Assembly (NCBI GenBank): GCA_001791745.1
Contig: MGFG01000009.1
Span: forward strand, 5,175-68,730
Length of the DNA stretch: 63,556 bases
Reading direction: 5' to 3'
Origin: Candidatus Uhrbacteria bacterium RIFOXYC2_FULL_47_19
GTDB taxonomy: Bacteria; Patescibacteriota; Patescibacteriia; SG8-24
Each line of letters begins with the position of its first letter. Positions within the stretch are counted from its first letter, which is position 1. The notes beneath the pieces were generated by a model. It was not told where the DNA came from and searched no databases. It worked only from the letters and a program-made list of their open reading frames with translations. This document shows positions 1-40,728 of this stretch, piece after piece. The translations under genes and the position numbers were made by a program.

Positions 1-2315
<2,315 letters not shown>

Positions 2316-2460
2316 CTTACCACTGAAATACGGAAATGTTTTTTGCAAGTTGCACGTTGTCTGCATTGAATAAGATCCTCCTTTGCTAAAGCTTTAGAGG
2401 ATTTTCATCTATTGGAAATCGCTAAAGCGATTAAGAATATAGGTGATAAAGAGTGCGGAG

Positions 2461-2580
<120 letters not shown>

Positions 2581-9278: not shown

Positions 9279-9283
9279 GGGAA

Positions 9284-9559
9284 TCAGATTAAGTCGAGCT
9301 TAATAACAGCATATTCTCTGAAGGTCAATATTTTTTTGATCCAATCATCTGTCAGTTCGTTCAAGTATGGATGTTCTTTTATGTCTTTAAAGATGTCGAT
9401 TTGTGACACTCTAACTCGGCGATTCAGTGGGGTATCGAGCACATAACCAACTTCATACTTTTTTGCCTCGTCTGAGACTCGGGTCGTGTAGGCGAAACCA
9501 AAATGTTCTAATTGCTGCTGGATGGAAGCATGTTCTTCCGGCGGAAAGTCAATTCGCAT
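9284..9559 (-). CDS. hypothetical protein (91 aa)
   Basis: ORF packed tightly between the neighbouring genes on the same strand. No motif recognised. Confidence 0.45.
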   Translation of the reverse strand: MRIDFPPEEHASIQQQLEHFGFAYTTRVSDEAKKYEVGYVLDTPLNRRVRVSQIDIFKDIKEHPYLNELTDDWIKKILTFREYAVIKLDLI

Positions 9560-9588
9560 GTTGATTGTGATTAGCAGAGTAGTTTTTG

Positions 9589-10794
9589 CTACTCCCCAAT
9601 TCTTTTAAGGATTCTAATGGTACCGTTTTCCAGCAGTATCTCTACCAAATCGCCGTTTCGCAAGACCCGGGTTGCTGTTTTGGTGCCGACTATACATGGC
9701 TTTTTCATCTCGCGGGCGACGATAGCTGCGTGACAAGTGAGCCCGCCTTCATCAGTAATAATCGCTTTAACTTGTTTGAGATAGGGGATGTAGTGCGGTG
9801 TGGTTTGTTCAGCAATTATGATTTTATTATCGGCTTTATTTCCAATCTGATCGAGTTCTGACTTGTTCCTAACAATTATCACTTCTCCAGTAACACTGCC
9901 GGATGAACCATAAGCGATTTGTCCGGTTAGTTCAGTTTTGTTCTTTTGGGTGTCCGATTCATGAGTCTGAGCTGTGAAGTGAGCTGTAATCTCTTTGACT
10001 GCTGGATCGTCACCACTCAGGACTGTTTCCGGCATTCCTTTAATATCCAAGAAAACGTAGCTGTGCTCACTTCGGTCCTTAACTGTTTCGACTATTATTT
10101 GATCGGTTATTTTTTCTTCCAGCCAGGATATAGCTTCGCTGATCGTCAGGAAGCCCAGTAGTGCTGTTGGCTCTAGGTTGATTTTCTCCTTGAGGATGTA
10201 TTTGAAAAAATGATACAGGTTGTTATCTAGCAACTCTTCTTTGAACGCTACTGAATTGCGCCAGGTGTCATGTTGTTGTAAGGCAAGCCGGGCTTCAGAT
10301 TTAGGATTAGTTTGTTCAGATAGTTTAAGTCCGAGAGAAAAAATCAGTATGAATTCTGCACCAGCTTCTCTATATAGATTGATCAACTCTTTGAAGATCT
10401 CGGTTGCTTTTCCTCGATCATTACAACTAATGGCCTTGATTAGCTGCGTACCAGCCACTGTCATTTGTTCATAAAGTTGGTCGCTTCGAGCGATGTGCTC
10501 GGAGAGTAGGTTTGGATTTTTAACTACTTTACTTTCAGAGATTGTGTGAAATCTCTTGGCTTGCTCCAGATTAATGATCCGCACTGTTCGACCATCTATC
10601 GGCACCAGCATTGAATCGGCAAATCTATCACCCCAATCCGGTCCGATGTGCTTCCGATAGCCGTCGGTCCTGGCTGTATAGAAAAGGAGTGAACTGTCAG
10701 ATCGAACACCCAACATCCATCTTTGACCTTTAATGTGGTCGATTATGGATTTTTGTTCAAACCGGTGATTGGGTCGATTCATCATGTCGTACAT
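9589..10794 (-). CDS. protein with a C-terminal PEP-utilising-enzyme mobile (swivel phosphohistidine) domain
   Basis: C-terminus ...AIITDEGGLTCHAAIVAREMKKPCIVG matches the PEP-utilisers phosphohistidine signature. The ~300 aa N-terminal part is unassigned. No ATP-grasp or PEP-binding barrel is seen. Confidence 0.7.
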   Translation of the reverse strand: MYDMMNRPNHRFEQKSIIDHIKGQRWMLGVRSDSSLLFYTARTDGYRKHIGPDWGDRFADSMLVPIDGRTVRIINLEQAKRFHTISESKVVKNPNLLSEHIARSDQLYEQMTVAGTQLIKAISCNDRGKATEIFKELINLYREAGAEFILIFSLGLKLSEQTNPKSEARLALQQHDTWRNSVAFKEELLDNNLYHFFKYILKEKINLEPTALLGFLTISEAISWLEEKITDQIIVETVKDRSEHSYVFLDIKGMPETVLSGDDPAVKEITAHFTAQTHESDTQKNKTELTGQIAYGSSGSVTGEVIIVRNKSELDQIGNKADNKIIIAEQTTPHYIPYLKQVKAIITDEGGLTCHAAIVAREMKKPCIVGTKTATRVLRNGDLVEILLENGTIRILKRIGE

Positions 10795-10800
10795 GTGGTG

Positions 10801-11736
10801 CTAGGCCTGGCCTTTGCAGCCAAAAACTCGCATTCGATCGCGAACAGTGGCTTTCATTAAAGCCTTGGATGGAGTGAGTAGTTTTCTTGGATCGATTTCA
10901 TCGGTCATTTCTGTAAGTGCTTGCCGTAATCCGACAGTAAAGGCCAGTCGTAGATCGGAATCGATGTTGATTTTGCGTATGCCAGCCTTGATAGCGCGGC
11001 GAATTTCACTATCTGGTACACCCTTAGCGCCTTTTAGGCGGCCACAATCACCGAGTCTTTCACAGTATTCTTTTGATTCGTTAACCAGTTCTTGATCTAT
11101 TTCTGAAGCTCCATGTAATACAAGCGGCACTCGTACTAACTGATCAATTTTTTTGAGTCTGGCAATATCTAGTTTAGCTTCTTCTTTAAACTTATAAGCA
11201 CCATGCGCTGTACCGATTGAGACGGCCAGGGCATCACATCCAGTCTCTATTGCGAAGCGTTGAGCTTCTTCTGGATTAGTGTAGAAAGCTCGTTTTTCAT
11301 CGACTGTAACTAAATCCTCGATACCTTTTATAGCTCCGATTTCTGCTTCGACTGAGACACCCTTGAGTTTGGCCCAACTAACAACTCGGCGTGTATTGGC
11401 TACGTTTTGTTTGTAAGGAAGGAGTGAACCGTCGTACATGACGGAGGTATAGCCTGCTGTAATCGCTCGTTTAATCAGCTTCAGATTTTTACCGTGATCC
11501 AAGTGGAGGACGACCGGAATTGGTGATTTGGCTGCCAGATTAACCATAGCTATTAAATAATCTAGACCGGCATATTCAATTGCACCTTCACTTGTTTGAA
11601 TGATAACCGGGGATCTTTCTTCGACTGCTGTTTCGATTACAGCCTGTAGAATCTCTAGATTGTTGATGTTGAAAGCTCCGACTGCATAGCCACCACGTTC
11701 GGCTCGGAATAATATTTTTTTGAGTGTAGTTAGCAT
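10801..11736 (-). CDS. fba: class II fructose-bisphosphate aldolase
   Basis: GGYAVGAFNINNLEILQAV..SPVIIQTSEG, HLDHG, LVLHGAS motifs. 311 aa. Confidence 0.9.
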   Translation of the reverse strand: MLTTLKKILFRAERGGYAVGAFNINNLEILQAVIETAVEERSPVIIQTSEGAIEYAGLDYLIAMVNLAAKSPIPVVLHLDHGKNLKLIKRAITAGYTSVMYDGSLLPYKQNVANTRRVVSWAKLKGVSVEAEIGAIKGIEDLVTVDEKRAFYTNPEEAQRFAIETGCDALAVSIGTAHGAYKFKEEAKLDIARLKKIDQLVRVPLVLHGASEIDQELVNESKEYCERLGDCGRLKGAKGVPDSEIRRAIKAGIRKINIDSDLRLAFTVGLRQALTEMTDEIDPRKLLTPSKALMKATVRDRMRVFGCKGQA

Positions 11737-11764
11737 GTTTCAGTGATTAGGTTCGACTATATTT

Positions 11765-12751
11765 TTACGCTTTGCGATGTAAAGCGCGACGAACGGCGGT
11801 TTTAATGTCGCTGACCGTCAGCTCGTACTCTGATAAGAGTTCGTCTGCTTCGCCAGATTGTCCAAAGCGGTTATGTACACCAACAAATTCGATTGGGGTT
11901 GGTGTGTTTTGGGCAAGTAATTCAGCCACAACCGAACCTAGTCCTCCGGCGATTTGGTGTTCTTCGACTGTAACCAGAGCACCGCATTTTTGGGCAGCCA
12001 TAAGTATCGCTTCGTCATCCAATGGTTTGATAGTGTGACAGTTAAGAACAGTGCATTCGATTCCGTCTTCGGCAGCTAACTCTTCGGCTGCTTGTAATGA
12101 CCTTTCTGTCATCAGTCCGCAAGCTATGATCGCTGTATCGGTACCCTCACGAAAGATTTGGACGCGGCCGATTTCAAACGGTGTATCAACAGAGGTTAGG
12201 GTTGGTACTTTGGCACGACCTAAGCGTAAGTAAGCTGGGCCATCGAGTGTTGCCAGGGCGAGTGTGGCTCGTCGAGCTTGTTCGGAGTCGCAGGGTACAA
12301 CCACTGTCATTTTCGGCAGACAACGCATGAGGGCTATATCTTCGAGTGCTTGGTGAGTAGCGCCATCGGCCCCAACCGACAGTCCGGCGTGCCCACCAAC
12401 CACTTTTAGATTTACATCATTTAAACAGACATTGGTTCGGATTTGTTCCCAGGAACGGCCAGGGGAGAAGGCAGCAAACGAGGCGACGAACGGTATTTTT
12501 CCAGCCAAGGCAAAGCCCGCACCCAGAGCCACTAATAATTGTTCAGAGACGCCGATGCGAACAAAGCGTTTAGGGAATTGCTGTTCAAATTCAGTCATCT
12601 TTAGTGATTCGGTCAGGTCGGCGCAGATGCCGATTATCCGCTCGTCTAGTTTAGCTGCTTCAACTAAACCTTGTCCGAAACCGTCGCGCGTGGCGGCGAG
12701 TAGTTTTTTTTGCTTGCCCGAATCATTCAGTTTCAAGTTTTGTTTAGACAT
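11765..12751 (-). CDS. tkt: transketolase, C-terminal (pyrimidine-binding) subunit
   Basis: RDGFGQGLVEAA, FVRIGVSEQ, GATHQALEDIALMR. Lies directly downstream of the N-terminal subunit gene (split transketolase). Confidence 0.9.
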   Translation of the reverse strand: MSKQNLKLNDSGKQKKLLAATRDGFGQGLVEAAKLDERIIGICADLTESLKMTEFEQQFPKRFVRIGVSEQLLVALGAGFALAGKIPFVASFAAFSPGRSWEQIRTNVCLNDVNLKVVGGHAGLSVGADGATHQALEDIALMRCLPKMTVVVPCDSEQARRATLALATLDGPAYLRLGRAKVPTLTSVDTPFEIGRVQIFREGTDTAIIACGLMTERSLQAAEELAAEDGIECTVLNCHTIKPLDDEAILMAAQKCGALVTVEEHQIAGGLGSVVAELLAQNTPTPIEFVGVHNRFGQSGEADELLSEYELTVSDIKTAVRRALHRKA

Positions 12752-12756
12752 ATTGA

Positions 12757-13617
12757 TCAGGCTACGTTCATAGTCAGCTTTTGTTCCACTGCTTGTAGTT
12801 CGGCTAGAGCTCGTTCAGTCTCTTCGTTGTTGGGTGCAAGGCCATGCCATTTATGATCGTTCTCCATAAAGCTAACGCCGCACCCCGGAATATTTTTAGC
12901 GATGATACAGGTTGGTCTATCACTAATCGACTTAGCCTGCTCTGCAGCTTTGATTATTTGACCAATGTCATTACCGTCGATTTCAATAACGTTCCAATTG
13001 AAGGCTAAATATTTTTCTTTGAGTGGTTCGATTGGCATGACTTCCTCGGTAGGTCCATCAATTTGAATGTCATTGCGATCAACAATACAAGTCAGGTTTG
13101 CTAATCGGTTTTTTCCGGCAAACAGTACAGCCTCCCAGTGCAATCCAGCACCATGCTCACCATCTGAAGTTAGTACATAGGTGTGCCAACTCAATTCATC
13201 TAGTCTGGCAGCATAGGCTAATCCAGCACCTTGGGCTAATCCAGCTCCTAGCGGACCGGAAGTTGATTCCAATCCAGGTAGCCGCAAACGTTCGGGGTGT
13301 CCTTGCAGTCTGGATCCAAAGTTGCGTAGGGTCAGCAGTTCATCGGGTGAGAAATAGCCAGCTCGAGCCATGGTGGCGTAGCGGGCCGGACAGATATGTC
13401 CATTCGACAGTAAAAAGCGGTCACGTTCATTCCAGTCCGGATTTTTTGGGTTATGGCGTAGGATTCGGAAGTAAAGTGCAACCATGACATCGGTCATGCC
13501 GAGTGAACCGGCTGGATGCCCCGATCCGGCGGCGTGGATCATTTTTATGATGTCCTGGCGGATCCGTATAGCTAGGATCTCCAGTTCGCTGTTCGATTCT
13601 TTGAAGTTGTGGTCCAT
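12757..13617 (-). CDS. tkt: transketolase, N-terminal (thiamine-diphosphate-binding) subunit
   Basis: GSGHPAGSLGMTD, LSNGH, GPLGAGL, SDGE..G..WEA, DRN motifs. 286 aa. Confidence 0.9.
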   Translation of the reverse strand: MDHNFKESNSELEILAIRIRQDIIKMIHAAGSGHPAGSLGMTDVMVALYFRILRHNPKNPDWNERDRFLLSNGHICPARYATMARAGYFSPDELLTLRNFGSRLQGHPERLRLPGLESTSGPLGAGLAQGAGLAYAARLDELSWHTYVLTSDGEHGAGLHWEAVLFAGKNRLANLTCIVDRNDIQIDGPTEEVMPIEPLKEKYLAFNWNVIEIDGNDIGQIIKAAEQAKSISDRPTCIIAKNIPGCGVSFMENDHKWHGLAPNNEETERALAELQAVEQKLTMNVA

Positions 13618-13711
13618 AAAGCCAAAAAGTCAATTTCTTCACTAAACTATAGCATTTTTAAGATCAGTTTCAATCATGTTTTTTAATAAACTCTTGGTCG
13701 ATGAATTGACC

Positions 13712-13740
13712 AAAACAAAAAGACCCGATTCTCAGGTCTA
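13712..13740 (-). terminator. rho-independent terminator after rpe
   Basis: AGACC(N9)GGTCT hairpin followed on the minus strand by TTTTGTTTT. Confidence 0.5.
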
Positions 13741-13751
13741 TTTGCCGCTTT

Positions 13752-14399
13752 CTAATTAATTTGTTTGATGGTTTGCAGGGCTGTATTTAGTTCTCTAAAA
13801 GCTTGCACTGGATCGGGTGAGTCGGTCAGTGAACTGCCGACTACTGCTGCATCAGCTCCGGCCGCAGCTACTGCAGCGATATTGTGCGGCTTAATACCAC
13901 CATCGACCACAATATGCAGGTCGGGGCAAAGACCACGAATAGTTCTTATTTTGCGTAGGATGTCCGGTTGAAAATCCTGTCCGCTTCGTCCCGGCTCTAC
14001 CGACATAACTAAAACCGAGGCAATATGGTCCAAGAACGGTGCGATATCTGAAACTGGGGTGTGTGGGTTGAGTGCTAAACCGATTCGATGTGGATTGTTG
14101 ACTGTTCTAAGAATGAGATCCTGTCGGTGTGTCGACTCAGTATGAAAGTAAACATGTTCAGTTCCAGAGACTAACCAGATTGGTACTTCATGTTCTGGAT
14201 TGTCGACCATTAAGTGCGCTCCGTATTTTAATCCATCAGCGTACTCTTCGACTAATAGGGGATCAGCCCAGCTTCTCTGTGGAACAAAGATTCCATCTGC
14301 CAGATCAACGTGAATTGTGAGACCCAAACAACGAACACGCTCGACCTTACGGGCAAATTCATCTTGAGTTGCGGCGAGTATGGATGGATAAATTTCCAT
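13752..14399 (-). CDS. rpe: ribulose-phosphate 3-epimerase
   Basis: PSILAA...IHVDLADGIFVP, HLMV, VVDGGI motifs. 215 aa. Confidence 0.8.
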   Translation of the reverse strand: MEIYPSILAATQDEFARKVERVRCLGLTIHVDLADGIFVPQRSWADPLLVEEYADGLKYGAHLMVDNPEHEVPIWLVSGTEHVYFHTESTHRQDLILRTVNNPHRIGLALNPHTPVSDIAPFLDHIASVLVMSVEPGRSGQDFQPDILRKIRTIRGLCPDLHIVVDGGIKPHNIAAVAAAGADAAVVGSSLTDSPDPVQAFRELNTALQTIKQIN

Positions 14400-14429
14400 A
14401 ATCCGACATTCGGAGAGTCGATTCTTGTA

Positions 14430-14909
14430 TTAGACCGATCCTTTTTCGTAGCTAGTAATTTTTTTCAGACGACGACGATGGCGTGCCTCTCCAGTAAACG
14501 AAGTTCGAAGCCAGATATTGACCAGTTTTTTGGCTATAATCGGTGTACCACTCAGAGTTCTAGATCCTAGACACAGAACATTCGCGTCATTATGTTGGCG
14601 TGACAGTCTGGTTGTATAACTATCGTAAGCTAAAGCAGCTCTAACTCCGGAAACTTTATTGGCGACGATGCATTCACCAATACCACTACCACCCATAACT
14701 ATAGCAACTGCCCGACCGCGCGATTTGGCTACAGCTTCGGCTGCCGGCAAGATGAAATCCGGGTAGTCGTCAGTCGGAGACAGTTTGAACGCTCCTTGAT
14801 CGACAACCTCGTATTTGGCACGAGTTAGATATTTTTTCAGTTCTTCTTTGAGTTCGTAGGCGGCATGGTCGGCCGCGAGATGAATAATTGGTTTGATTCG
14901 GTCGGGCAT
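14430..14909 (-). CDS. rpiB: ribose-5-phosphate isomerase B
   Basis: RpiB/LacAB pattern: AADHAAYELKEEL, GGSGIGECIVANKVSGVRAA, HNDANVLCLG. 159 aa. Confidence 0.85.
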   Translation of the reverse strand: MPDRIKPIIHLAADHAAYELKEELKKYLTRAKYEVVDQGAFKLSPTDDYPDFILPAAEAVAKSRGRAVAIVMGGSGIGECIVANKVSGVRAALAYDSYTTRLSRQHNDANVLCLGSRTLSGTPIIAKKLVNIWLRTSFTGEARHRRRLKKITSYEKGSV

Positions 14910-15026: not shown

Positions 15027-18000
15027 ATGGCTAAATTCAACTTACCGTTAATCGAGAAGTCCGAGCTCGAGAATTGGAAGGAGAAACGGATCCTTCAACA
15101 GATTCTAGAGCGCAACAGAAAGCCGGCGGAGAATCCGCGTGGCAAGTTTGTTTTTTATGAAGGTCCGCCGACCGCCAATGGTAGGCCGGGCACTCATCAC
15201 GTTCTGGCTCGTGCTTTCAAGGATGCTGTGGTTCGCTACCGCACCATGCGTGGTTATTGCATTGATCGTAAGGCTGGTTGGGATACACACGGTCTACCGG
15301 TCGAGCTGGAGGTAGAGAAGCAGTTGGGTTTTACCAAAAAGCAGCAGATTGAGGAGTACGGAGTAGCGGCGTTTAATCGTAAGTGTCGTGAGTCGGTCTG
15401 GAAATATCTCGACCTGTGGCAGGATATCACACGGCGCATCGGCTTCTGGGTGGACATGGACGATCCTTACATTACTTATAAAAACGATTACGTCGAGTCG
15501 TTGTGGTGGATCTTGAAAGAAATCAGTAGTCAAGAAATAGAAGGTCAGCCGATGTTGTTCGAGGGTTATCGAACTACACCGCACTGCCCACGTTGTGTTA
15601 CATCCCTGTCGTCACATGAGTTGGCGCAAGGGTATAAGGATGTTGAGGACCTGTCGGTCTTCGTTAAGTTTGCAGTGAAAGGTCAGCCTGGATTGTTCTT
15701 TTTGGCTTGGACGACTACTCCTTGGACTCTACCAGCTAACCTAGCTCTTGCTGTTAGATCGGATATTGAATACGTCGAGGTCAAATTGGAAGGTTCAGAT
15801 GAACGTTTCATTTTGGCCAAGGCATTATTAGGTGTGTTGTTGAGCGGCCATGAGATTGTCTCGGAGAAGAAGGGGTCTGATCTGGTCGGATTAGAGTACG
15901 AGCCGCTCTATGATATCGCGCCGGCTGACAGTCGGAGTAAGGTTTACCGCGTTTACACTGCTGACTTCGTTTCTATGGAGGATGGTACTGGCATTGTGCA
16001 TATTGCCCCGGCTTATGGTGATGATGATGCTGAACTCGGGCGTGAGTATGGATTGCCACCGGTATTGAGTGTGGACGCAGTTGGAATCATGGCCGATGGA
16101 TTGCCTGGTGGCGGGAAATCGTTCAAGGAGTCAGATGACGATGTGAGGGCCGACTTGGTTTCTCGCGGGCTCTTATATAAGGAAGAGAAGTATCTGCACT
16201 CCTATCCGTTTTGCTGGCGTTGCGGTACGCCGCTTATGTACCTAGCGAAGAGATCATGGTACATCCGCATGTCCAAACTGCGCGAAGAGTTGGCGGCCAA
16301 CAACCAGCAGATCAATTGGGTACCGTCACATATTAAGGACGGCCGTTTTGGTGAGTGGTTGCGTGAGGCTAAGGATTGGGCTTTATCACGCGAGCGATAC
16401 TGGGGTACTCCACTGCCGGTTTGGAAGTGCACTGCTTGCAACAAAACTCGAGTTATTGGTGGTTTATCCGAATTAGATGAGGTGGCACCGGCGCGGAACA
16501 CTTACTTCTTTCAGCGTCATGGTGAGTCAACTAGTAATGTAGCTCGATTGATTACTAGCCAAGACTTATCCGATAAGTACCACCTAACCGAGCGCGGTCT
16601 AAAACAGGTCGAGGAAGCAGCAGCTAAGTACGCGGGAATGGGTATTGATTTTATCTACGCTTCTGACTTGCATCGAACTAAGCAGACTGCCGAGGCTATT
16701 GCTGCAGCCTGTGGTTTGAAGGTTATCTATGATGAGCGGTTGCGCGAAGTTAAGACAGATAGCTCAAGAGATCGATCTGAAGACGAGTTTACTGCTCAGT
16801 TTACCGACTACAAGGAACGGATGGATAAACATATAGAGGAGGAGGATGAGTCTCTGCGCGATGTCAGACGGCGTATCATTGCTACACTCAAGGACATCGA
16901 CTCGCGACATGAAGGTAAACGGATCATGATTGTTAGTCATGGTGATTTGCTTTACGGAGCTAAGACCGGACTTTTGGGTTATGACGACGAGATGACTGTG
17001 GCCAGAATGAAGGACGAATATGTGAATGTAGGTGAACATTGGGAGTATGAGTTGCCGCGTCGTCCATATGACGAGGAAGGTCATGTAGACGTGCATCGTC
17101 CATTCATTGATGAGGTTAAATTTAAGTGTGTTTGTGGTGGTGAGATGGTACGCGAGCTGGATGTGCTCGACTGCTGGTTTGATTCGGGTGCTATGCCTCT
17201 TGCTCAATGGGGCTATCCATATCTAGAAGGTTCGATTGAACGGATTGACGGTACCAATCCGACCAACTTTCCAGCCGAGTACATCTCTGAAGCTATTGAT
17301 CAGACACGCGGTTGGTTTTATACCATGCTCGCGATTTCGACCTTGCTCGGACGAGGGACTCCGTATCGGAATGTCATTTGTTTAGGTCATATTCTCGATG
17401 GTAAGGGACTGAAGATGTCCAAGTCTAAGGGTAATATTGTCGATCCGTGGACCATGATGGATAAATGGGGAGCCGATGCGATTCGTTACAGCTTTTTCAC
17501 TGTCAATCAGCCTGGCGAACCGAAGCGATTCGATGAAAAAGGATTGGAAGATGTAACTAAGAAGGTCTTTTTAATCCTTTGGAATGTGTTGTCATTCCAT
17601 CAAATGTTTGCCGTTAAGGGTGCAGATTTTTCAGCGGCCCCATCAAAGCCGCAACATGTCCTTGATCAGTGGTTATTAGATGAGTTGGATACATTGATTA
17701 CTGACTCAACTAATGATCTCGAGAATTATCAGGTGGTCGATGCCTGCCGGAGGTTCGGTGGCTTCGTGAATGACCTGTCAACTTGGTACATCCGTCGTAG
17801 CCGCGATCGGTTCAAGGGTGAGGAGAGTGAACGTTCCGAAGCTTCGGCCACACTCGGTTATACGCTATATACGCTCTCTAGATTGCTGGCACCATTCACT
17901 CCGTTTTTAGCTGAGGCGCTGTATCGAGAACTGGGTGGTCAGATGGATTCGGTACATTTGGAGAGTTGGCCGGAAAAATCGACTACTTCTTCGGATGAGA

Positions 18001-18494
18001 AGCTAGTTCAAAAGATGCGGATGGTTAGATCGGCGGCTTCGGTTGGACTTGAAAAGAGAGCTTCGGCTGGTGTACCGGTTCGTCAGGCTTTGGCTAAGGC
18101 AACCATTACTGCGAACGTGGATAGCGAAGACTGGATGTCTGAACTTTTGAGCGACGAGCTTAACGTATTGAATATAGAATGGAAGAAGGGTGAGCAGATT
18201 GAGGTTGAATTAGATACCGAGATAACTCCAAAGTTACGACGTTTAGGGTTGTTGCGTGAGATCGTTAGGAACGTCAATGCTCTACGTCGTGAAGCTGGTC
18301 TCACTCCATCTGATGAGATAGTTCTAAATTGGGAATCGTCCGGTGATCTCTGGTCGGAAACTTTTGCTGAACACAGTGTTGTACTTCAAGGATCAGTTCA
18401 TGCGGTCGACTTGAACCAGGGCCGGACCGAGACTGAATTTTCGACGGAAATAGATGCCGACGGTCAAACTCTCTGGCTAGGCTTCAATCATTAG
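15027..18494 (+). CDS. ileS: isoleucyl-tRNA synthetase with an internal histidine-phosphatase-like domain insertion (~nt 16495-17085)
   Basis: PPTANGRPGTHH (HIGH region), TTPWTLPAN (editing domain), LKMSKSKGN, WFDSG, DQTRGWFYT. The insertion carries RHGESTSN...SDLHRTKQTAE...IVSHGDLL. 1155 aa in a single frame. Confidence 0.92.
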   Translation: MAKFNLPLIEKSELENWKEKRILQQILERNRKPAENPRGKFVFYEGPPTANGRPGTHHVLARAFKDAVVRYRTMRGYCIDRKAGWDTHGLPVELEVEKQLGFTKKQQIEEYGVAAFNRKCRESVWKYLDLWQDITRRIGFWVDMDDPYITYKNDYVESLWWILKEISSQEIEGQPMLFEGYRTTPHCPRCVTSLSSHELAQGYKDVEDLSVFVKFAVKGQPGLFFLAWTTTPWTLPANLALAVRSDIEYVEVKLEGSDERFILAKALLGVLLSGHEIVSEKKGSDLVGLEYEPLYDIAPADSRSKVYRVYTADFVSMEDGTGIVHIAPAYGDDDAELGREYGLPPVLSVDAVGIMADGLPGGGKSFKESDDDVRADLVSRGLLYKEEKYLHSYPFCWRCGTPLMYLAKRSWYIRMSKLREELAANNQQINWVPSHIKDGRFGEWLREAKDWALSRERYWGTPLPVWKCTACNKTRVIGGLSELDEVAPARNTYFFQRHGESTSNVARLITSQDLSDKYHLTERGLKQVEEAAAKYAGMGIDFIYASDLHRTKQTAEAIAAACGLKVIYDERLREVKTDSSRDRSEDEFTAQFTDYKERMDKHIEEEDESLRDVRRRIIATLKDIDSRHEGKRIMIVSHGDLLYGAKTGLLGYDDEMTVARMKDEYVNVGEHWEYELPRRPYDEEGHVDVHRPFIDEVKFKCVCGGEMVRELDVLDCWFDSGAMPLAQWGYPYLEGSIERIDGTNPTNFPAEYISEAIDQTRGWFYTMLAISTLLGRGTPYRNVICLGHILDGKGLKMSKSKGNIVDPWTMMDKWGADAIRYSFFTVNQPGEPKRFDEKGLEDVTKKVFLILWNVLSFHQMFAVKGADFSAAPSKPQHVLDQWLLDELDTLITDSTNDLENYQVVDACRRFGGFVNDLSTWYIRRSRDRFKGEESERSEASATLGYTLYTLSRLLAPFTPFLAEALYRELGGQMDSVHLESWPEKSTTSSDEKLVQKMRMVRSAASVGLEKRASAGVPVRQALAKATITANVDSEDWMSELLSDELNVLNIEWKKGEQIEVELDTEITPKLRRLGLLREIVRNVNALRREAGLTPSDEIVLNWESSGDLWSETFAEHSVVLQGSVHAVDLNQGRTETEFSTEIDADGQTLWLGFNH

Positions 18495-18502
18495 TTCGTA
18501 TC

Positions 18503-19054
18503 ATGATCATCAAACTGACAGGTCAGTTGACCTACAAGGGAACGAACTACGCTATAGTTGAAACTGGTGGGGTAGGTTATCAGGTTTACCTTTCTTCCAG
18601 CACTCTGGCTGATTTACCTGGTGGTAGCGAGGTCGAACTTTGGACTCACGAACATGTTCGTGAGGAGTTACGTGATTTGTATGGTTTTCGTAGTGAGCGG
18701 GAGCGCGGATTATTTTTGGAGCTTTTGGACGTCTCGGGTGTAGGTCCAAAGATGGCTCAGAACATCATGTCTTTGGGTAAAGTCGAGGAGATCGAACGTC
18801 GGATTGATGCTGGTGATGTGGCCTGGATGTCACGTGTACCAGGTGTAGGCAAGAAGACCGCTCAGAAGATTATTTTGGAACTAAAAGGCAAGCTGACCGA
18901 TATCGGTTCGTCTGATCCGCTCGGTAGTGAGGTGGTCTCGGCACTCATGAATCTCGGCTACTCACGTGAGCAGGCCAATCAGGCGGCGGTTCAATCCGAG
19001 GAAGGACCAGTCGAGGAGCGGCTCAAGGCAGCACTTAAGGCATTGGCGAGATGA
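18503..19054 (+). CDS. ruvA: Holliday junction DNA helicase subunit RuvA
   Basis: MIIKLTGQL...VETGGVGYQVYLS, LLDVSGVGPKMA, VPGVGKKTAQKIILELK (HhH motifs). 183 aa. Confidence 0.9.
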   Translation: MIIKLTGQLTYKGTNYAIVETGGVGYQVYLSSSTLADLPGGSEVELWTHEHVREELRDLYGFRSERERGLFLELLDVSGVGPKMAQNIMSLGKVEEIERRIDAGDVAWMSRVPGVGKKTAQKIILELKGKLTDIGSSDPLGSEVVSALMNLGYSREQANQAAVQSEEGPVEERLKAALKALAR

Positions 19055-19674
19055 CTGCTCAGCGTGATGAGGATCGAGAGAAGATCGTTTCCGCCTATCG
19101 GAGCGGAGCTCAGGTTTTGGCCGACAAGTTCGACAGTATCGGGGTGAGGGTTGCAGACATCGATCGCACTTTGGGTTTTTGTCAGCAGGAAAGGCCGAAT
19201 ATCTTGGAGCTCGGTTGTGGCAACGGACGCGACGCACAGGAGCTGTACCGTCGGGCTGGGTCGTATCTTGGTTTGGATATCTCGCCCGATCTGGTCGAGC
19301 TGGCCAGGATGAAGGTTCCAAATGCGCGTTTTGAAGTGGCCGATGTGATGGAATACTCCTTTCCGCTCGAACTCGATGCAGTTTTCGCCTTTGCCTCCCT
19401 GATTCACCTAGACCAGGAAGAAATGGAGGACGTATTGATCAGAATCGCCGCGGCGTTAAAGCTGGGTGGTGTGCTGATGCTTTCGATGAAGTATGGGGAG
19501 TACCGTCGAGTGGTTAAGGAAGACGATTTTGGCACCAGAATATTCCATCTCTATACGCCTGAACTAATTGAAAATCTTGCCTCCTCCAATTTTGAAACCA
19601 TCTGGACTAGTCAGAAAAACCTGAGAGGACAGGACTGGTTTGAAATCATCCTTCGCAAGACTAACTCCGTCTGA
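19051..19674 (+). CDS. class I SAM-dependent methyltransferase
   Basis: Motif I ILELGCGNGRDA. Overlaps the ruvA stop (ATGA). Confidence 0.75.
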   Translation: MTAQRDEDREKIVSAYRSGAQVLADKFDSIGVRVADIDRTLGFCQQERPNILELGCGNGRDAQELYRRAGSYLGLDISPDLVELARMKVPNARFEVADVMEYSFPLELDAVFAFASLIHLDQEEMEDVLIRIAAALKLGGVLMLSMKYGEYRRVVKEDDFGTRIFHLYTPELIENLASSNFETIWTSQKNLRGQDWFEIILRKTNSV

Positions 19675-20724
19675 ATGTTGAAACTGGTCGAAAGTGAGTC
19701 GTCGGACTGGAATCGCTTCGTTCTCGAGAACGGCAGTGGCTTTTTGCAGTCTTGGGAGTGGGGCGAGTTTCAGGAAGCTGTTGGTCGGCGAGTTTTTCGT
19801 TATCGCATCGATCTGCCAGGTGACAACGGTCAGTCGGTTGCTCGGTTTACTGCGATTTATGATTCATTTCCATTTGGTCGCCGCTATTCTTACATACCCA
19901 TGGGTCCGATTGTCTCCATAGATGGTGATCGTCGGAATAAGTTTGGTGTGGCTGTTTCAGCCATTAGGGAGTCTATTACTCGGGAAGGTTTGGTGTTAGC
20001 TCGTCTGGAACCACCAGCAGGATTTAATAGAGAGGATCTAAGTCGAGATGACCTACTTCAACTGGGTTTGGTTCCGGCACGCGCCAGAAGTCCGCAACAC
20101 ACCAGTGTTGTTGATTTGATCAAGAGTTCTGATGAGCTACTGGCCGACATGAAGCAAAAGACTCGCTACAATATTCGATTGGCTGAGAAGAGAGAGGTAA
20201 ACGTGCGACAGGCCGATCCGTCCGACCTTCGTGCTTTCACTAAAGATATTGATCGTTTTCAACAATTACTAGCCGAGACAGCTGGGCGTGACAGGTTTCA
20301 TACACACGAATCGGACTACTACAGACGAATGCTACAAGTATTAGCACCGAAAGATGGGCACGATTTGTCGGTTCGTCTGATGTTAGCCGATTTTGAGGGG
20401 CAGACTTTGGCTGCGGCCGTTCTGGCTCAATTCGGCGATACGATGACCTATTTACATGGGGCATCATCGTCGCAGCATCGTGAGGTTATGGCTCCCTATT
20501 TGTTGCACTGGCAGGCTATGCTTTGGGCTAAAGAAGTTGGTCTATCAAGATATGATTTTTGGGGAGTGGCGCCGGAAGATTCAGCAGCCGATCATTCATG
20601 GTCTGGTCTAACTCGATTTAAGTTGGGTTTTGGTGGACAGCGCGAGTCGAACTTGGGAACCTGGGAGTTACCTGGTAGTAAATTTTGGTACGGGGCTTAT
20701 AAAATAACGAAACGATTTTTTTGA
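19675..20724 (+). CDS. FemAB-family peptidoglycan interpeptide-bridge aminoacyltransferase
   Basis: FLQSWEWGEFQ N-terminus, KTRYNIRLAEK, TYLHGASS. The length (349 aa) is typical of the Fem/lipid II aminoacyltransferase family. Confidence 0.8.
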   Translation: MLKLVESESSDWNRFVLENGSGFLQSWEWGEFQEAVGRRVFRYRIDLPGDNGQSVARFTAIYDSFPFGRRYSYIPMGPIVSIDGDRRNKFGVAVSAIRESITREGLVLARLEPPAGFNREDLSRDDLLQLGLVPARARSPQHTSVVDLIKSSDELLADMKQKTRYNIRLAEKREVNVRQADPSDLRAFTKDIDRFQQLLAETAGRDRFHTHESDYYRRMLQVLAPKDGHDLSVRLMLADFEGQTLAAAVLAQFGDTMTYLHGASSSQHREVMAPYLLHWQAMLWAKEVGLSRYDFWGVAPEDSAADHSWSGLTRFKLGFGGQRESNLGTWELPGSKFWYGAYKITKRFF

Positions 20725-22292: not shown

Positions 22293-22417
22293 AAGGTCTT
22301 TATAAGATTATTCTTGTTTATCTTACTTGATTGACCAGGTTTGTCAAGGGTTTAGATATTTAGTACCTTCTGCTACCCTAATTGGGTATACGAATCTTTT
22401 TTATAAATTTATGGTCT

Positions 22418-24178
22418 ATGCGTTCAGAACAGGAAAATGAGGTCATCTATCAAGGGGACGGTTGGATAATGGTCCGCACTGACGACGATAATCTGTTTGA
22501 TGTTCTTTATGGTGAGGGCTACGAGAGGGTGGTGCTCGTGAACGAGCTGGCCGACGGTACCTTTGAGTACATCATAGGAAAGAAATCGGAGGATGTGGTT
22601 GGTTTTCCGGTTGGACCAGAAACCGAGATCGGAACTTTTCTCTTTGAGTTGAACAAGCTTGAAATGGGGTGGAAGGGGAGCAATTTGTATGGTGGGGCAC
22701 CGATGAATACAGATGGATCCCGTTCCATTCTTACGCCCCATACTGTCGCTAGCCTTATCAATTTTACGATTCGTGAAGGCACTGCCATCCGTTCATCAGA
22801 TTCGGGCATGTCAAAAAAACAGGAGGGAGAGATTGATCCCAGCCTAATTTTTGATGAGGCTATTCTTGATTTTCAAGTAGACGCGGAACGATTGGGCAGA
22901 GTTAATTACGTTAATTTGGACAATGCCGCCACTACTCCACCTTTCTTAGCAGTACAGCGTGGTGTCGATGACTATCTGGTAACCTATGGATCTGTCCATC
23001 GTGGAGCGGGGATCAAGTCTAAGGTCTCAACGGATGTTTACGAGCGAACTCGTGACGTCATTAGGGATTTTGTGGGAGCACCAGAAAATTTTTACGTTCT
23101 ATTTACTGGCAATACCACCGGTGCAATGAATACGGCGGCTTACTTCTTCTCCTTTCTTGAAGGTAAGGTCGCCGTGTCTCAGATCGAGCACAGCTCCTCG
23201 TGGTTGCCGTGGATAAAGACAGAGGGGGAGAAGTCATTAGGGAACAGACGTGTTGAATTTCAACACCTGCCCGAAGTTCAGGAACATATACAAGAGGCCG
23301 GACGAGAGATGGTCTTACGATATTCACTTGACAAGAATGGAGAATTTGACCTCGATGGAATCGAGGAGATGTTGAAGTCCAACAATATAAAAGCTTTCGT
23401 TCTGACCGCGTCGTCGAATCTTACCGGATACCGCCCTGACATCAGAAAGATAGGCGAGATTGTTCATCGTTATGGCGCTTATTACATTGTTGATGCCTGT
23501 CAGTTTTTGCAGCATCACAAGATAGACATGATGGAGATGGGGATCGACTTTTTGGCCGCGTCAGGACACAAGTTTTACGCTCCTTACGGTGGCGGATTTC
23601 TGATAGGTCCGAAGATTTTTTTGGATCAGTTTTTACCCTATCAGATTGGTGGTGGAAATCTGCCATATATAACAAAGGAGGGCGTTTTCTTGCGCTATAA
23701 AAATCAGCTGGCGCATGATCCTGGCACTCCGAATGCTATAGGAGCTGTCGCTATGTCGGTAGCCTTGGAGAAGCTTAAGGAGATAGGAATAGACAGAATT
23801 GAGGCCTACGAAAGTCGTCTGACGAGAATAGCCTTTGATGCACTCAAAAAGAATCCGAAGGTTCGTATTCTGGTCAGTGATCTGCATTTAAGCACCGTGC
23901 TTCCTTTTGTGGTGGATGGGTTTGACTCAAAAATTTTTGCCGAGAGACTGAATAGAGAATTTGGAATCGGCGTCCGGGCCGGAAGCTTTTGTGTTTATGA
24001 TGTTGTGAGGGAATTACTCGGCATAGAGGACGAATCAAAAGTTATTGAGGCCGTTGAACGTGGTGACACCATGCTGATACCGGGAGTGATCAGGGCGTCT
24101 TTTGCTTTATGCAATACCGAGCGTGATGTAGACAGGCTTGTACAGGCCGTCAATTTTATTACCGAAAATAAGAATTGA
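22418..24178 (+). CDS. class-V aminotransferase / cysteine-desulfurase-like protein with an unassigned ~170 aa N-terminal domain
   Basis: NLDNAATTPPF, GSVHRGAGIKS, LFTGNTTGAMN, ASGHKFYAPYGGGFLIG (PLP-Lys region), IRASFALCNT. Start uncertain (TTG 22382 or ATG 22418). Confidence 0.75.
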   Translation: MRSEQENEVIYQGDGWIMVRTDDDNLFDVLYGEGYERVVLVNELADGTFEYIIGKKSEDVVGFPVGPETEIGTFLFELNKLEMGWKGSNLYGGAPMNTDGSRSILTPHTVASLINFTIREGTAIRSSDSGMSKKQEGEIDPSLIFDEAILDFQVDAERLGRVNYVNLDNAATTPPFLAVQRGVDDYLVTYGSVHRGAGIKSKVSTDVYERTRDVIRDFVGAPENFYVLFTGNTTGAMNTAAYFFSFLEGKVAVSQIEHSSSWLPWIKTEGEKSLGNRRVEFQHLPEVQEHIQEAGREMVLRYSLDKNGEFDLDGIEEMLKSNNIKAFVLTASSNLTGYRPDIRKIGEIVHRYGAYYIVDACQFLQHHKIDMMEMGIDFLAASGHKFYAPYGGGFLIGPKIFLDQFLPYQIGGGNLPYITKEGVFLRYKNQLAHDPGTPNAIGAVAMSVALEKLKEIGIDRIEAYESRLTRIAFDALKKNPKVRILVSDLHLSTVLPFVVDGFDSKIFAERLNREFGIGVRAGSFCVYDVVRELLGIEDESKVIEAVERGDTMLIPGVIRASFALCNTERDVDRLVQAVNFITENKN

Positions 24179-40255: not shown

Positions 40256-40719
40256 ATGGCCGACCGGACGGTCGCCTTTGCCGCAAAAACAGGGTAAGGG
40301 AGGAAAGTCCGGACACCCCTCGAGCGGCAACGCCGAGGAAGCAGGTAGTCGCTAACGACGACCGGGAATAAGGTTTGACGGGCATTTCTCCTAGGAAACT
40401 GGAGAAGTCTCTGTCGGCCCCAAGCCTAGGGAAAGTGAAACAGAAAATACACCGCCCGAATCCTAGCGCAAGCAAGGATGAGGTCTTGAGTGGAGTCGAA
40501 AGACTTTCTCAAGCTGGGTAAGGTTGAAAACGTGGGGTAAGAGCCCACGCGGGACAGCCGTGTGAGCGGCGCCGTGGAAAACCCTGCCTGGTGCAAGAGC
40601 AAGTTTGGTAGCTCGCTAGAGGTCGTCGGCAACGACGATCCCAGATAGATGGCCGTCCGTCGTCAGATGTGCGTTTCGTGCGTCGGGCGACGACAGAATC
40701 CGGCTTACAGGTCGACCAT
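40256..40719 (+). ncRNA. rnpB: RNase P RNA (bacterial type A)
   Basis: GGGAGGAAAGTCCGGACACC (P4 5' strand), GGTAAGAGCCCACGC, ACAGAATCCGGCTTACAGGTCGACC (P4/P1 3' strands), and 5' GGCCGACC pairing with the 3' end. About 464 nt, so some helices are expanded relative to E. coli. Confidence 0.9.
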
Positions 40720-40728
40720 GAATCGTCG

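What the first reader, a model, noticed from the sequence alone, without database searches (positions are those of the whole stretch)
16495..17085. Complete histidine-phosphatase (PGAM-like) domain inserted in frame inside isoleucyl-tRNA synthetase
ORF 15027-18494 has every IleRS landmark I can read: PTANGRPGTHH, the TTPWTLPAN editing core, and LKMSKSKG. The insertion lies between the two halves of a zinc knuckle, C-T-A-C (nt 16428-16439) and C-V-C (17127-17135). IleRS normally has only a short linker there before D(L/V)HRP(F/Y)IDE. Here ~195 in-frame codons carry the ordered motif set of the histidine phosphatase superfamily: RHGESTSN (Arg codon at 16515), LTERGLKQ, SDLHRTKQTAE, DERLREV, ESLRDVRRR and IVSHGDLL (His codon at 16938). 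There is no stop or frameshift, so this is a domain insertion, not a gene junction. I know of no described IleRS carrying a phosphatase/mutase module. The catalytic residues look intact, so it could act on tRNA termini or a nucleotide-like ligand, or supply a moonlighting activity in a reduced genome. Those functions are speculative.
Basis: partly seen in the sequence, partly recalled or inferred. Interest (0 to 1): 0.78.

Follow-up and report, generated by a model that had tools for sequence, protein, structure and literature searches.

The report
Phosphatase domain nested inside isoleucyl-tRNA synthetase
The enzyme that charges tRNA with isoleucine in this uncultured, small-genome bacterium (Patescibacteria/CPR) carries a complete and apparently active histidine-phosphatase domain spliced into one of its surface loops; the feature is shared by hundreds of related lineages, I found no paper describing it, and its purpose is unknown.

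Summary
ORF 15027-18494 (+), 1155 aa, is a complete type-2 IleRS (TIGR00392, 836 bits against a cutoff of 621). About 200 in-frame codons (aa 487-686, nt 16485-17084) lie between the two halves of a zinc knuckle, where insert-less relatives have 3-11 residues.

The insert is a His_Phos_1 domain (E = 2e-35). It folds with confidence (pLDDT 94) and is closest to the phosphatases PhoE and PspA, not to phosphoglycerate mutases. It keeps every catalytic residue.

It is not an assembly artefact. Of the 120 nearest protein clusters, 119 carry it, from independent assemblies. R497, H498, R550, E608 and H638 are invariant in 114 of 114 sequences.

New findings:
- In a neighbour-joining tree the insert-bearing IleRS form one CPR clade, with a few secondary losses.
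- Other lineages carry two to four copies, at four different IleRS loops.
- The same family also exists as a ~190-aa gene abutting insert-less ileS (10 of 11 informative loci), in the same argS-ileS locus.
- Single cases are fused to ArgRS or to Sua5/TsaC.

This fusion/fission pattern argues that the phosphatase works with IleRS. The substrate is unknown. I favour a nucleotide-type ligand over a tRNA terminus, with low confidence. No publication was found. I rate it a new variant of a known kind.

The parts
15027..18494 (+). ileS: type-2 isoleucyl-tRNA synthetase, 1155 aa, with a nested phosphatase domain
   Evidence: ORF. TIGR00392 scores 836 bits against a cutoff of 621. Best PDB matches are type-2 IleRS 8C8W/8C8V, with Foldseek E = 8e-91. 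The AF2 model has pLDDT 93.8 and pTM 0.86.
15189..15200 (+). Non-canonical class I signature motif G-T-H-H (GXHH in place of HXGH)
   Evidence: Sequence. The clade consensus is GIHH. Brkic et al. 2023 (PMC10485003) link this motif to mupirocin hyper-resistance in IleRS2.
15714..15740 (+). Editing-domain (CP1) threonine-rich motif TTPWTLPAN
   Evidence: Invariant W228-T234 in alignment A1.
16428..16439 (+). N-terminal half of the second zinc knuckle, C468-T-A-C471
   Evidence: C468 is 98% and C471 89% conserved.
16485..17084 (+). Inserted segment (aa 487-686), delimited by comparison with insert-less IleRS
   Evidence: 8C8W and insert-less CPR, Chloroflexota and Clostridia IleRS have a 3-11 aa linker here. 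AF2 pLDDT is 92 or higher across the segment. The insert-only model has pLDDT 94.3.
16509..16988 (+). His_Phos_1 (PF00300) core, aa 495-654
   Evidence: Pfam E = 8.7e-34. PhoE 1EBB/1H2E profile E = 6e-32. Foldseek TM = 0.81 to 1H2E.
16515..16538 (+). RHG motif: R497, H498 (predicted phospho-acceptor nucleophile), G499, N504
   Evidence: Aligned to PhoE R9/H10. R497 and H498 are present in 114 of 114 sequences.
16671..16694 (+). Second phosphate-binding arginine, R550, in HRTKQTAE
   Evidence: 114 of 114 conserved.
16731..16751 (+). DERLREV, with E574 as the predicted general acid
   Evidence: Aligned to the PhoE LRE motif. E in 106 and D in 8 of 114 sequences.
16848..16874 (+). ESLRDVRRR, with E608 and R616
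   Evidence: E608 in 114 of 114 and R616 in 113 of 114.
16932..16946 (+). VSHGD, with H638 as the second catalytic histidine
   Evidence: 114 of 114 conserved. Aligned to the PhoE tHG motif.
17127..17135 (+). C-terminal half of the zinc knuckle, C701-V-C703
   Evidence: Both cysteines are 98% conserved.
17412..17426 (+). KMSKS loop
   Evidence: K796-K799 are invariant.

Best explanation
This is the organism's working type-2 IleRS. A complete PhoE/PspA-like histidine phosphatase (branch 1 of the superfamily) is nested at the tip of the second zinc-knuckle hairpin of the catalytic domain. By position this is the CP3-type insertion, which is my inference. The domain is inherited with the synthetase across Patescibacteria.

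Shown: the architecture, the fold, the intact catalytic set (R497, H498, N504, R550, E574, E608, R616, H638), clade-wide conservation, and genetic coupling to ileS.

Inferred, about 0.8: the domain is an active phosphohydrolase that works through a phospho-His498 intermediate, with E574 as the general acid.

Inferred, about 0.55: its job is tied to aminoacylation or translation rather than to general metabolism. The same family is found embedded in IleRS at several loops, as a separate gene translationally abutting ileS, fused to ArgRS, fused to the t6A enzyme Sua5/TsaC, and next to a TrpRS/TyrRS gene.

My committed guess for the substrate, about 0.3: a small nucleotide-type phospho-ligand common to these ATP -> AMP + PPi enzymes (AMP or another adenosine phosphate, or a terminal phosphoanhydride). 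Hydrolysing it locally would relieve product inhibition or pull the adenylation step forward. A phosphate on the 3'-terminal adenosine of tRNA is my second choice, about 0.2.
For: Architecture:
-.
- AF2 full-length model: pLDDT 93.8, pTM 0.86, insert pLDDT 92 or higher.

Phosphatase type:
- PhoE profile E = 6e-32, with RHG, LRE and HG aligned.
- Foldseek TM = 0.81 to PhoE and 0.74 to PspA; dPGMs align worse (target-normalised TM about 0.6).

Selection:
- Insert pairwise identity is 39% against 56% for the body, yet R497, H498, R550, E608 and H638 are present in 114 of 114 sequences.
- The full catalytic signature is present in 197 of 231 embedded domains and in both copies of nearly all double-domain proteins.
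- Insert and body identities co-vary, r = 0.66.

Spread:
- 119 of 120 nearest clusters carry the insert.
- 971 representative clusters reach E <= 1e-30.

Single clade with losses.

Coupling:
- The standalone gene abuts ileS in L081/82, L084, L085, L086, L087, L088, L095, L096 and L098, and sits about 700 nt upstream in L093.
- argS lies upstream of both the split and the embedded forms.
- There are ArgRS and Sua5 fusions.
- A tandem copy sits beside a tRNA-synt_1b gene.
- Insertions occur at four IleRS loops, with duplications.

Small-ligand preference:
- The PhoE-like lid subdomain is retained.
- Sua5/TsaC is not itself a tRNA-binding enzyme (established knowledge).
- The query insert has a net charge of -10.
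Against: - No activity, substrate or binding data exist. Nothing here distinguishes the candidate substrates directly.
- I could not obtain model coordinates, so I do not know whether the phosphatase pocket faces the synthetic site or the tRNA path.
- The ArgRS, Sua5 and TrpRS/TyrRS links each rest on one representative cluster.
- Some CPR lineages (a Uhrbacteria subclade, L012, P0081) have lost the insert and have no copy within the flanks I could see. The function is therefore dispensable or supplied from elsewhere.
- In this window's own lineage (query plus P0001), three family motifs that probably line the pocket have drifted: SSWPE -> TSQDL, FGxFNGK -> KTDSSRDR, PEGGES -> EEEDES. This enzyme may have changed specificity or may be decaying.
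- Hydrolysing AMP looks wasteful for an organism that salvages nucleotides.
Confidence: 0.5

Rival explanations
1. tRNA-end phosphatase. The tethered domain removes a 2'/3'-phosphate, or a toxin-added pyrophosphate, from the 3'-terminal adenosine of tRNA so that it can be charged. It would be a built-in tRNA repair or antitoxin step.
For: The family associates with enzymes that handle tRNA 3' ends: IleRS, ArgRS, and a TrpRS/TyrRS neighbour. The insertion lies in the catalytic-domain connective region. toxSAS toxins are known to pyrophosphorylate tRNA CCA ends (my own knowledge; not tested here).
Against: Sua5/TsaC, another fusion partner, does not bind tRNA (established knowledge). The domain keeps a PhoE-like small-substrate lid. 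The query insert is acidic, with net charge -10. I know of no precedent for a branch-1 histidine phosphatase acting on RNA termini. It is also unclear why repair would be attached mainly to IleRS.
Confidence: 0.2
2. Metabolic moonlighting. The domain is an ordinary small-molecule phosphatase (phosphoserine, sugar phosphate, or a PGM substitute) that a reduced genome parked inside an essential, constitutively expressed gene. It has no mechanistic link to IleRS.
For: The closest characterised relatives are metabolic enzymes: PhoE, PspA, CobC and GpgP. CPR genomes are gene-poor. In this window ileS lies next to a sugar-metabolism cluster of RpiB, Rpe, transketolase, FBA, PfkB and a PEP-utilising enzyme.
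Against: Capture is recurrent and specific to IleRS, at four loops. There are duplications within IleRS, a conserved hp-ileS abutment in translation-gene neighbourhoods, and ArgRS and Sua5 fusions. No NCBIfam equivalog cutoff is reached; the best is 89 bits against 225. The sugar cluster is on the opposite strand and is not conserved in related loci.
Confidence: 0.18
3. Regulatory or architectural module. The domain senses a phospho-metabolite or is itself phosphorylated on His498, and it may dimerise as PhoE and PspA do. In this way it tunes or dimerises IleRS to couple translation to energy state.
For: Branch-1 enzymes form stable phospho-His intermediates and are usually dimers (established knowledge). 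Tandem and double-domain forms could be intramolecular pseudo-dimers. The AF2 pTM of 0.86 suggests a fixed orientation on the body.
Against: Full conservation of the general acid and of both Arg and both His residues points to turnover, not only to binding. There is no precedent in aaRS.
Confidence: 0.1
4. Artefact or junk: an assembly chimera, an intein-like selfish element, or a neutral decaying insertion.
For: The query lineage has drifted at three family motifs. The insert evolves faster than the body.
Against: More than 100 independent assemblies carry it. There is no compositional break. There is no Hint or intein domain, and the fold is His_Phos. The catalytic residues are invariant.
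Confidence: 0.02

Closest known systems
Type-2 bacterial IleRS (IleRS2) with the non-canonical GXHH signature motif; Priestia megaterium IleRS2 structures 8C8U/8C8V/8C8W; Brkic et al. 2023, PMC10485003
   Same: The whole synthetase body matches: Rossmann/HUP domain, CP1 editing domain, both zinc knuckles, KMSKS, Anticodon_1, and the C-terminal DUF5915/ARD-type domains. Phmmer E = 3.5e-236, with 32% identity over the Foldseek structural alignment. The GTHH motif is the naturally swapped form tied to mupirocin hyper-resistance.
   Different: PmIleRS2 has about 9 residues where this protein has about 200. Two IleRS-focused phylogeny and structure papers I checked for these terms mention neither Patescibacteria nor a phosphatase.
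PhoE (YhfR) broad-specificity phosphatase of Geobacillus stearothermophilus (1EBB, 1H2E) and the Hydrogenobacter phosphoserine phosphatase PspA (4IJ5)
   Same: The fold matches (TM 0.81 and 0.74). RHG, the second Arg, the LRE acid and the C-terminal HG all align. The size is about 190-200 aa, and there is no mutase-type C-terminal tail.
   Different: Sequence identity is only 24-29%. The domain is nested inside another enzyme. It has family-specific motifs (SSWPE, PEGGES) and a terminal beta-strand that returns the chain to its entry point. The substrate is unknown. NCBIfam equivalog cutoffs are not reached.
NCBIfam NF040702, 'isoleucine--tRNA ligase, N-acetyltransferase domain-containing' (ileS_w_GNAT)
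   Same: It is a precedent for a bacterial IleRS that carries an extra small-molecule enzyme domain.
   Different: The domain is different (GNAT). This protein scores 266 bits against a cutoff of 1999, so it is not a member.
Bifunctional RNase H / acid phosphatase (PRK07238, Rv2228c type)
   Same: A PhoE/CobC-like His_Phos domain is fused to an enzyme of nucleic-acid metabolism. The insert matches the phosphatase half at 64-67 bits.
   Different: That is an end-to-end fusion, not a nested insertion. The partner enzyme is different. The cutoff of 326 bits is not met.
Lineage-specific insertion modules of class Ia synthetases (CP2/CP3, the LeuRS leucine-specific domain, the IleRS2 INS subdomain)
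   Same: They are surface-loop insertions in the catalytic or anticodon-binding body that are gained and lost between lineages. The INS example comes from bioRxiv 10.64898/2026.02.03.703510; the others are from my own knowledge.
   Different: Those modules bind tRNA or shape the active site and have no independent catalytic chemistry. This one is a complete second enzyme.

Membership tests
Isoleucyl-tRNA synthetase (TIGR00392 ileS) | Whole-protein score above the curated equivalog cutoff | tested here: met
   836.4 bits against a cutoff of 621.4, matched in two stretches that flank the insert.
Isoleucyl-tRNA synthetase (TIGR00392 ileS) | Class I signature motifs (HIGH-type and KMSKS) and CP1 editing motifs | tested here: met
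   GTHH (the non-canonical GXHH variant), KMSKS, TTPWTLPAN and GTGIVH are present and conserved in the clade.
Type-2 IleRS (IleRS2) | Closest to IleRS2 rather than IleRS1 in sequence and fold; type-2 C-terminal domains; a GXHH motif, which Brkic et al. 2023 found only in IleRS2 | tested here: met
   8C8W IleRS2 gives E = 3.5e-236, against IleRS1 8C9F at 7e-95. Foldseek gives 8e-91 against 3e-54. DUF5915 is present. The motif restriction is from PMC10485003.
Acquired mupirocin-resistance IleRS, MupA/MupB (NF000257/NF000258) | Score above the exception-model cutoff of 1900 bits | tested here: not met
   716 and 735 bits.
Histidine phosphatase superfamily, branch 1 (PF00300) | Pfam score above the gathering threshold | tested here: met
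   117-122 bits against 21.7.
Histidine phosphatase superfamily, branch 1 (PF00300) | Catalytic core: RHG nucleophile His, two Arg, a second His, and a Glu general acid, all in register with a solved member | tested here: met
   Profile alignment to PhoE 1EBB. Residues R497, H498, R550, E574 and H638 are invariant or E/D across 114 sequences.
Histidine phosphatase superfamily, branch 1 (PF00300) | Alpha/beta fold of the superfamily | tested here: met
   AF2 pLDDT 94.3. Foldseek TM = 0.81, rmsd 2.3 A to 1H2E.
Histidine phosphatase superfamily, branch 1 (PF00300) | Phosphohydrolase activity through a phospho-histidine intermediate | not testable with these tools
   Needs an enzyme assay.
Cofactor-dependent phosphoglycerate mutase (dPGM; TIGR01258, NF038349, PRK14115 and others) | Score above the family cutoffs; full-length match including the mutase-specific middle insertion and C-terminal tail | tested here: not met
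   The best is 84-89 bits against 225 (NF038349), and 24-31 bits against 81.7 (TIGR01258) with only the N-terminal ~70 residues matched. dPGM structures align only over residues ~8-110 by profile and with a target-normalised TM of about 0.6.
Named phosphatase equivalogs (PspA NF045917, CobC TIGR03162/PRK15004, GpmB PRK03482, SixA TIGR00249) | Score above the equivalog cutoff | tested here: not met
   70 against 350, 66 against 163, 85 against 261, and 24.5 against 74.5.
Intein / homing insertion | Hint or endonuclease domains with splice-junction residues | tested here: not met
   Pfam reports only His_Phos_1 in the insert. The fold is PhoE-like. The boundaries are a conserved N491 and P680, not Cys/Ser...His-Asn.

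The most novel reading that the evidence does not exclude
The histidine phosphatase is a previously unrecognised accessory activity of the translation apparatus in Patescibacteria. It would be a second catalytic centre that IleRS (and sometimes ArgRS or TsaC) carries or recruits to process a phosphorylated nucleotide or tRNA terminus as part of normal tRNA charging, or in defence of it. That would make this the first aminoacyl-tRNA synthetase with a built-in phosphohydrolase step.
Probability: 0.35. Interest if true: 0.88.

Novelty: new variant of a known kind. Interest (0 to 1): 0.7.

Why it matters
Aminoacyl-tRNA synthetases are among the most conserved enzymes known. Extra catalytic domains inside their cores are rare, and in bacteria almost unheard of.

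Here a complete second enzyme sits in the catalytic domain of an essential synthetase across a superphylum that makes up a large share of bacterial diversity. It has been duplicated, re-inserted at other loops, split off as an adjacent gene, and fused to other translation enzymes. That pattern is the classic signature of a real functional partnership.

Finding the substrate could reveal one of three things: an unknown step in tRNA charging or repair, an unknown link between energy or phosphate metabolism and translation, or a resistance mechanism. The last would sit alongside the clade-wide mupirocin-hyper-resistance motif.

The family also offers a natural set of split, single, double and absent variants for experiments.

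Tried and rejected
- **Mis-assembly or chimera.** Rejected: 119 of 120 nearest clusters from four independent sources share the architecture, and there is no GC break.
- **Intein.** Rejected.
- **True phosphoglycerate mutase.** Rejected on family cutoffs and fold comparison.
- **Word-index search with the insert alone**. It returned only 8 distant standalone proteins and missed the embedded ones, so it was uninformative. The exhaustive profile search replaced it.
- **Standalone His_Phos 2.5 kb upstream of insert-less ileS in L012**. It has E-S-H-G instead of RHG and scores only 93 bits. I judged it an unrelated superfamily member.
- **Alignment A3 of 32 standalone proteins.** It was too divergent for a locus scan. 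The narrower A4 worked.
- **Domain-level NJ tree to decide whether the split or the embedded form is ancestral**. It was star-like, so the direction is unresolved.
- **Net-charge comparison to test RNA binding**. Inconclusive: the spread ran from -21 to +34.
- **Tandem protein P0242.** Its neighbourhood shows no aaRS link.
- **Nine literature searches and three papers searched for the relevant terms.** None describes the architecture.
Full report
**1. The observation**

ORF 15027-18494 on the + strand encodes 1155 residues with no stop or frameshift.

- GTHH within PTANGRPGTHH: aa 55-58
- TTPWTLPAN: aa 230-238
- KMSKS: aa 796-800
- C-T-A-C: nt 16428-16439
- C-V-C: nt 17127-17135
- Arg497 codon: nt 16515
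- His638 codon: nt 16938

The quoted range 16495-17085 is one base out of frame. The in-frame range is 16494-17087.

Pfam splits tRNA-synt_1 into two pieces around a His_Phos_1 match at aa 495-654. E is 8.7e-34 in the whole protein and 2.4e-35 for the insert alone. Anticodon_1 and DUF5915 follow. NCBIfam calls the whole protein ileS, with TIGR00392 at 836 bits against a cutoff of 621.

Against solved structures, residues 15-483 align to residues 19-474 of Priestia megaterium IleRS2 (8C8W), and residues 685-1055 align to 484-852. About 200 residues therefore replace about 9. GC content is flat across the region.

**2. What the host protein is**

Sequence and predicted fold both put it in type-2 IleRS. 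8C8W gives E = 3.5e-236, against 7e-95 for type-1 8C9F. Foldseek gives 8e-91 against 3e-54. The full-length AlphaFold2 model is confident, with mean pLDDT 93.8 and pTM 0.86. The insert region is at 92 or above.

Both zinc knuckles are conserved: C187/C190/C396/C399 and C468/C471/C701/C703. The signature motif is the swapped GXHH form (GTHH here, GIHH in the clade consensus). Brkic et al. 2023 showed that this form confers mupirocin hyper-resistance and found it only in IleRS2 (PMC10485003).

The window holds no second IleRS and no other His_Phos gene.

**3. What the insert is**

A profile of 37 insert sequences finds the phosphatases PhoE (1EBB/1H2E, E = 6e-32), PspA (4IJ5) and CobC first. True dPGMs match only over their N-terminal ~100 residues. 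The insert-only model (pLDDT 94.3) superposes on PhoE with TM 0.81 and rmsd 2.3 A. dPGMs give a target-normalised TM of about 0.6.

No NCBIfam equivalog cutoff is met: dPGM_arch 89 against 225, GpmB 85 against 261, PspA 70 against 350, CobC 66 against 163. The insert is therefore a phosphatase-type branch-1 member of unassigned specificity, not a mutase.

RHG, the second Arg, the LRE acid and the C-terminal HG are in register with PhoE. The model ends in a beta-strand (aa 671-675) that brings the chain back to its entry point. The standalone relatives have the same strand, which makes the fold easy to insert.

**4. It is real and widespread**

Of the 120 closest protein clusters (45-100% identity), 119 carry PF00300. 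They come from NCBI, JGI, ENA and Logan assemblies. Where named, they are called Patescibacteria, Parcubacteria, Paceibacterota, Uhrbacteria or Pacebacteria. A few are labelled with other phyla, which I suspect are binning errors.

In species-representative genomes, six loci carry the insert, including a Saccharibacteria MAG and a Paceibacterota MAG. An exhaustive profile search of 1.84 billion representatives gives 971 clusters at E <= 1e-30.

Across 114 insert-bearing sequences:
- The insert evolves faster than the body, at 39% against 56% mean pairwise identity.
- The two identities co-vary, r = 0.66.
- R497, H498, R550, E608 and H638 are present in 114 of 114. R616 is present in 113. E574 is E in 106 and D in 8.

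This pattern indicates purifying selection on catalysis in a domain inherited together with its host.

**5. Evolutionary pattern**

I built a neighbour-joining tree of the IleRS body, with insert columns removed, from 198 sequences. It has no support values and is provisional. All insert-bearing proteins fall in one clade beside Chloroflexota and other type-2 IleRS. The earliest CPR branches (L006, the Saccharibacteria L004, L005) carry the insert.

The insert-less sequences inside the clade are a Uhrbacteria subclade (L007, L008, L011, L032), L012 and P0081. They have 3-11 residue linkers. P0081's locus keeps the window's ileS...ruvA-femAB order, so it looks like a clean secondary loss.

The simplest reading is one ancient gain and several losses.

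**6. New findings that bear on function**

(a) *Multiple copies and multiple sites.*
- P0130 has two tandem domains at the canonical site.
- P0140 has one at the canonical site and one at the position of query aa ~863-876.
- P0135 and P0191 have one at ~729-748 and one at ~863-876.
- P0248 has a single domain at ~739.
- P0129 has four stretches, one of them at ~417-426.
- P0140 is a single ORF on its contig.
- Both copies keep the full catalytic signature in nearly all of them. The exceptions are one copy each in P0129 (N->A) and P0131 (ER->QQ), plus N-terminally truncated copies.

(b) *A split form.* Clean ~190-aa standalone members score 180-230 bits against the insert profile. In 10 of 11 informative loci the gene lies directly upstream of an insert-less ileS. 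It abuts or overlaps ileS in L081/L082, L084, L085, L086, L087, L088, L095, L096 and L098, and lies about 700 nt away in L093. The exception is the 2.1-kb contig L083.

(c) *The same locus.* argS sits immediately upstream both of the split form (L081, L085, L087) and of the embedded form (L099, L102). One cluster, P0195, is ArgRS with the domain fused to its C terminus.

(d) *Other partners.* P0209 is Sua5/YciO/YrdC (the TsaC enzyme of t6A synthesis) with a C-terminal domain of this family. The tandem protein P0180 lies just upstream of a tRNA-synt_1b (TrpRS/TyrRS) gene. A second tandem protein, P0242, shows no such context.

Fusion in some genomes and adjacency in others is the classic 'Rosetta stone' sign of a functional partnership. 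Here the partners are ATP-dependent enzymes of tRNA charging and modification.

**7. How it most likely works**

*Shown:* the fold, the catalytic residues, their conservation, and the genetic coupling.

*Inferred from established chemistry of the superfamily:* His498 attacks a terminal phosphoryl group held by R497, R550 and H638. E574 protonates the leaving group. Water then releases phosphate.

*Inferred from section 6:* the reaction serves aminoacylation or translation (about 0.55).

*Substrate.* My leading guess, about 0.3, is a small nucleotide-type ligand common to the ATP -> AMP + PPi partner enzymes. Three points favour this:
- Sua5/TsaC does not bind tRNA.
- The PhoE-like lid for small substrates is kept.
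- The query insert is acidic, with net charge -10.

A phosphate or pyrophosphate on the tRNA 3' end is second, at about 0.2. Metabolic moonlighting (about 0.18) and a regulatory or dimerising role (about 0.1) remain open. I could not obtain model coordinates, so the geometry relative to the synthetic site is untested.

**8. A caveat specific to this window**

Only the query and its near-identical fragment P0001 have lost three family motifs that probably line the pocket: SSWPE -> TSQDL, FGxFNGK -> KTDSSRDR, and PEGGES -> EEEDES. They keep the catalytic set. This lineage may have shifted specificity or may be relaxing. The clade-level conclusions do not depend on it.

**9. Comparison with what is known, and novelty**

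The body is an ordinary IleRS2 of the GXHH kind. The insert is an ordinary branch-1 histidine phosphatase. The combination is not ordinary.

NCBIfam has a model for an IleRS with a GNAT domain, but this protein fails it (266 bits against 1999), and there is no model for this architecture. Sources name the protein generically. Nine full-text searches found no description. Nor did term searches (Patescibacteria, phosphatase, insertion) within two IleRS phylogeny and structure papers and one paper on CPR aaRS. The library is incomplete, so prior description cannot be excluded.

I classify the finding as a new variant of a known kind. It is common in nature but apparently undescribed.

**10. Verdict**

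The function is unresolved, but fusion and fission evidence now ties it to IleRS. Interest is 0.7.

Noticed in passing
window 15189-15200: The IleRS signature motif is G-T-H-H, the swapped GXHH form. The whole CPR clade has GIHH as consensus. Brkic et al. 2023 tie this form to millimolar-Ki mupirocin hyper-resistance in IleRS2. This suggests that the clade's IleRS evolved under pressure from inhibitors.
   Followed up: partly
P0130, P0135, P0140 (locus L117 1932-6191), P0191, P0248, P0129: Other CPR IleRS carry two to four His_Phos domains, in tandem or at other loops. These loops correspond to query aa ~417-426, ~729-748 and ~863-876. The catalytic residues are intact in nearly all copies.
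   Followed up: partly
L081 10001-10570, with ileS at 10572-13367; also L084, L085, L086, L087, L088, L093, L095, L096, L098: A standalone ~190-aa member of the same family lies directly upstream of an insert-less ileS, often between argS and ileS. L081's IleRS has a canonical HYGH motif and a eukaryote/archaeal-like PFATGTPHYGH sequence.
   Followed up: yes
P0195; P0209 (L109 977-2140); P0180 (L113 2081-3313): The same phosphatase family is fused to the C terminus of ArgRS and of Sua5/YrdC (TsaC, t6A synthesis). As a tandem protein it also lies just upstream of a TrpRS/TyrRS-type gene.
   Followed up: partly
window 16494-17087, compared with relatives P0002-P0030: Only this lineage has lost three family motifs that probably line the pocket: SSWPE -> TSQDL, FGxFNGK -> KTDSSRDR, and PEGGES -> EEEDES. 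The catalytic residues are kept.
   Followed up: partly
window 40256-40723: The bacterial class A RNase P RNA match spans 468 nt for a 367-position model, which implies about 100 nt of extra sequence.
   Followed up: no
window 1-2580: The window opens inside a 23S rRNA gene (model positions 600-2925 covered in 2318 nt, so no large intron in this part), followed by a 5S rRNA gene at 2462-2580.
   Followed up: no
window 8313-14909 (- strand): A sugar-phosphate metabolism cluster lies divergently upstream of ileS. It comprises a PfkB-family kinase, a PEP-utilising-enzyme mobile-domain protein, class II FBP aldolase, a transketolase split into two ORFs, Rpe and RpiB. The adjacency to ileS is not conserved in related loci.
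   Followed up: partly
window 22382-24178 (+): In a 598-aa class-V aminotransferase ORF (TTG start), Pfam's best stretch covers only aa 311-586 and the match is in two stretches. Either the start is over-called, or the protein has a large unassigned N-terminal or inserted segment.
   Followed up: no
window 18503-20724 and L116 5534-7026: The order ileS ... ruvA - femAB-family gene is conserved between the window and the insert-less relative P0081. A FemAB-type (aminoacyl-tRNA-dependent) transferase therefore lies close to ileS in both.
   Followed up: no
L003 (labelled Acidobacteriaceae MAG); P0029 (Eisenbacteria); P0049 (Baltobacteraceae): A few insert-bearing IleRS sit in bins named for non-CPR phyla. 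In the tree they fall inside the CPR clade, so mis-binning is the likely cause. Horizontal transfer was not excluded.
   Followed up: no
L012, ORF at 6772 (+), 212 aa: An unrelated His_Phos superfamily protein with E-S-H-G in place of RHG lies 2.5 kb upstream of an insert-less CPR ileS. That ileS has also lost the zinc-knuckle cysteines.
   Followed up: partly
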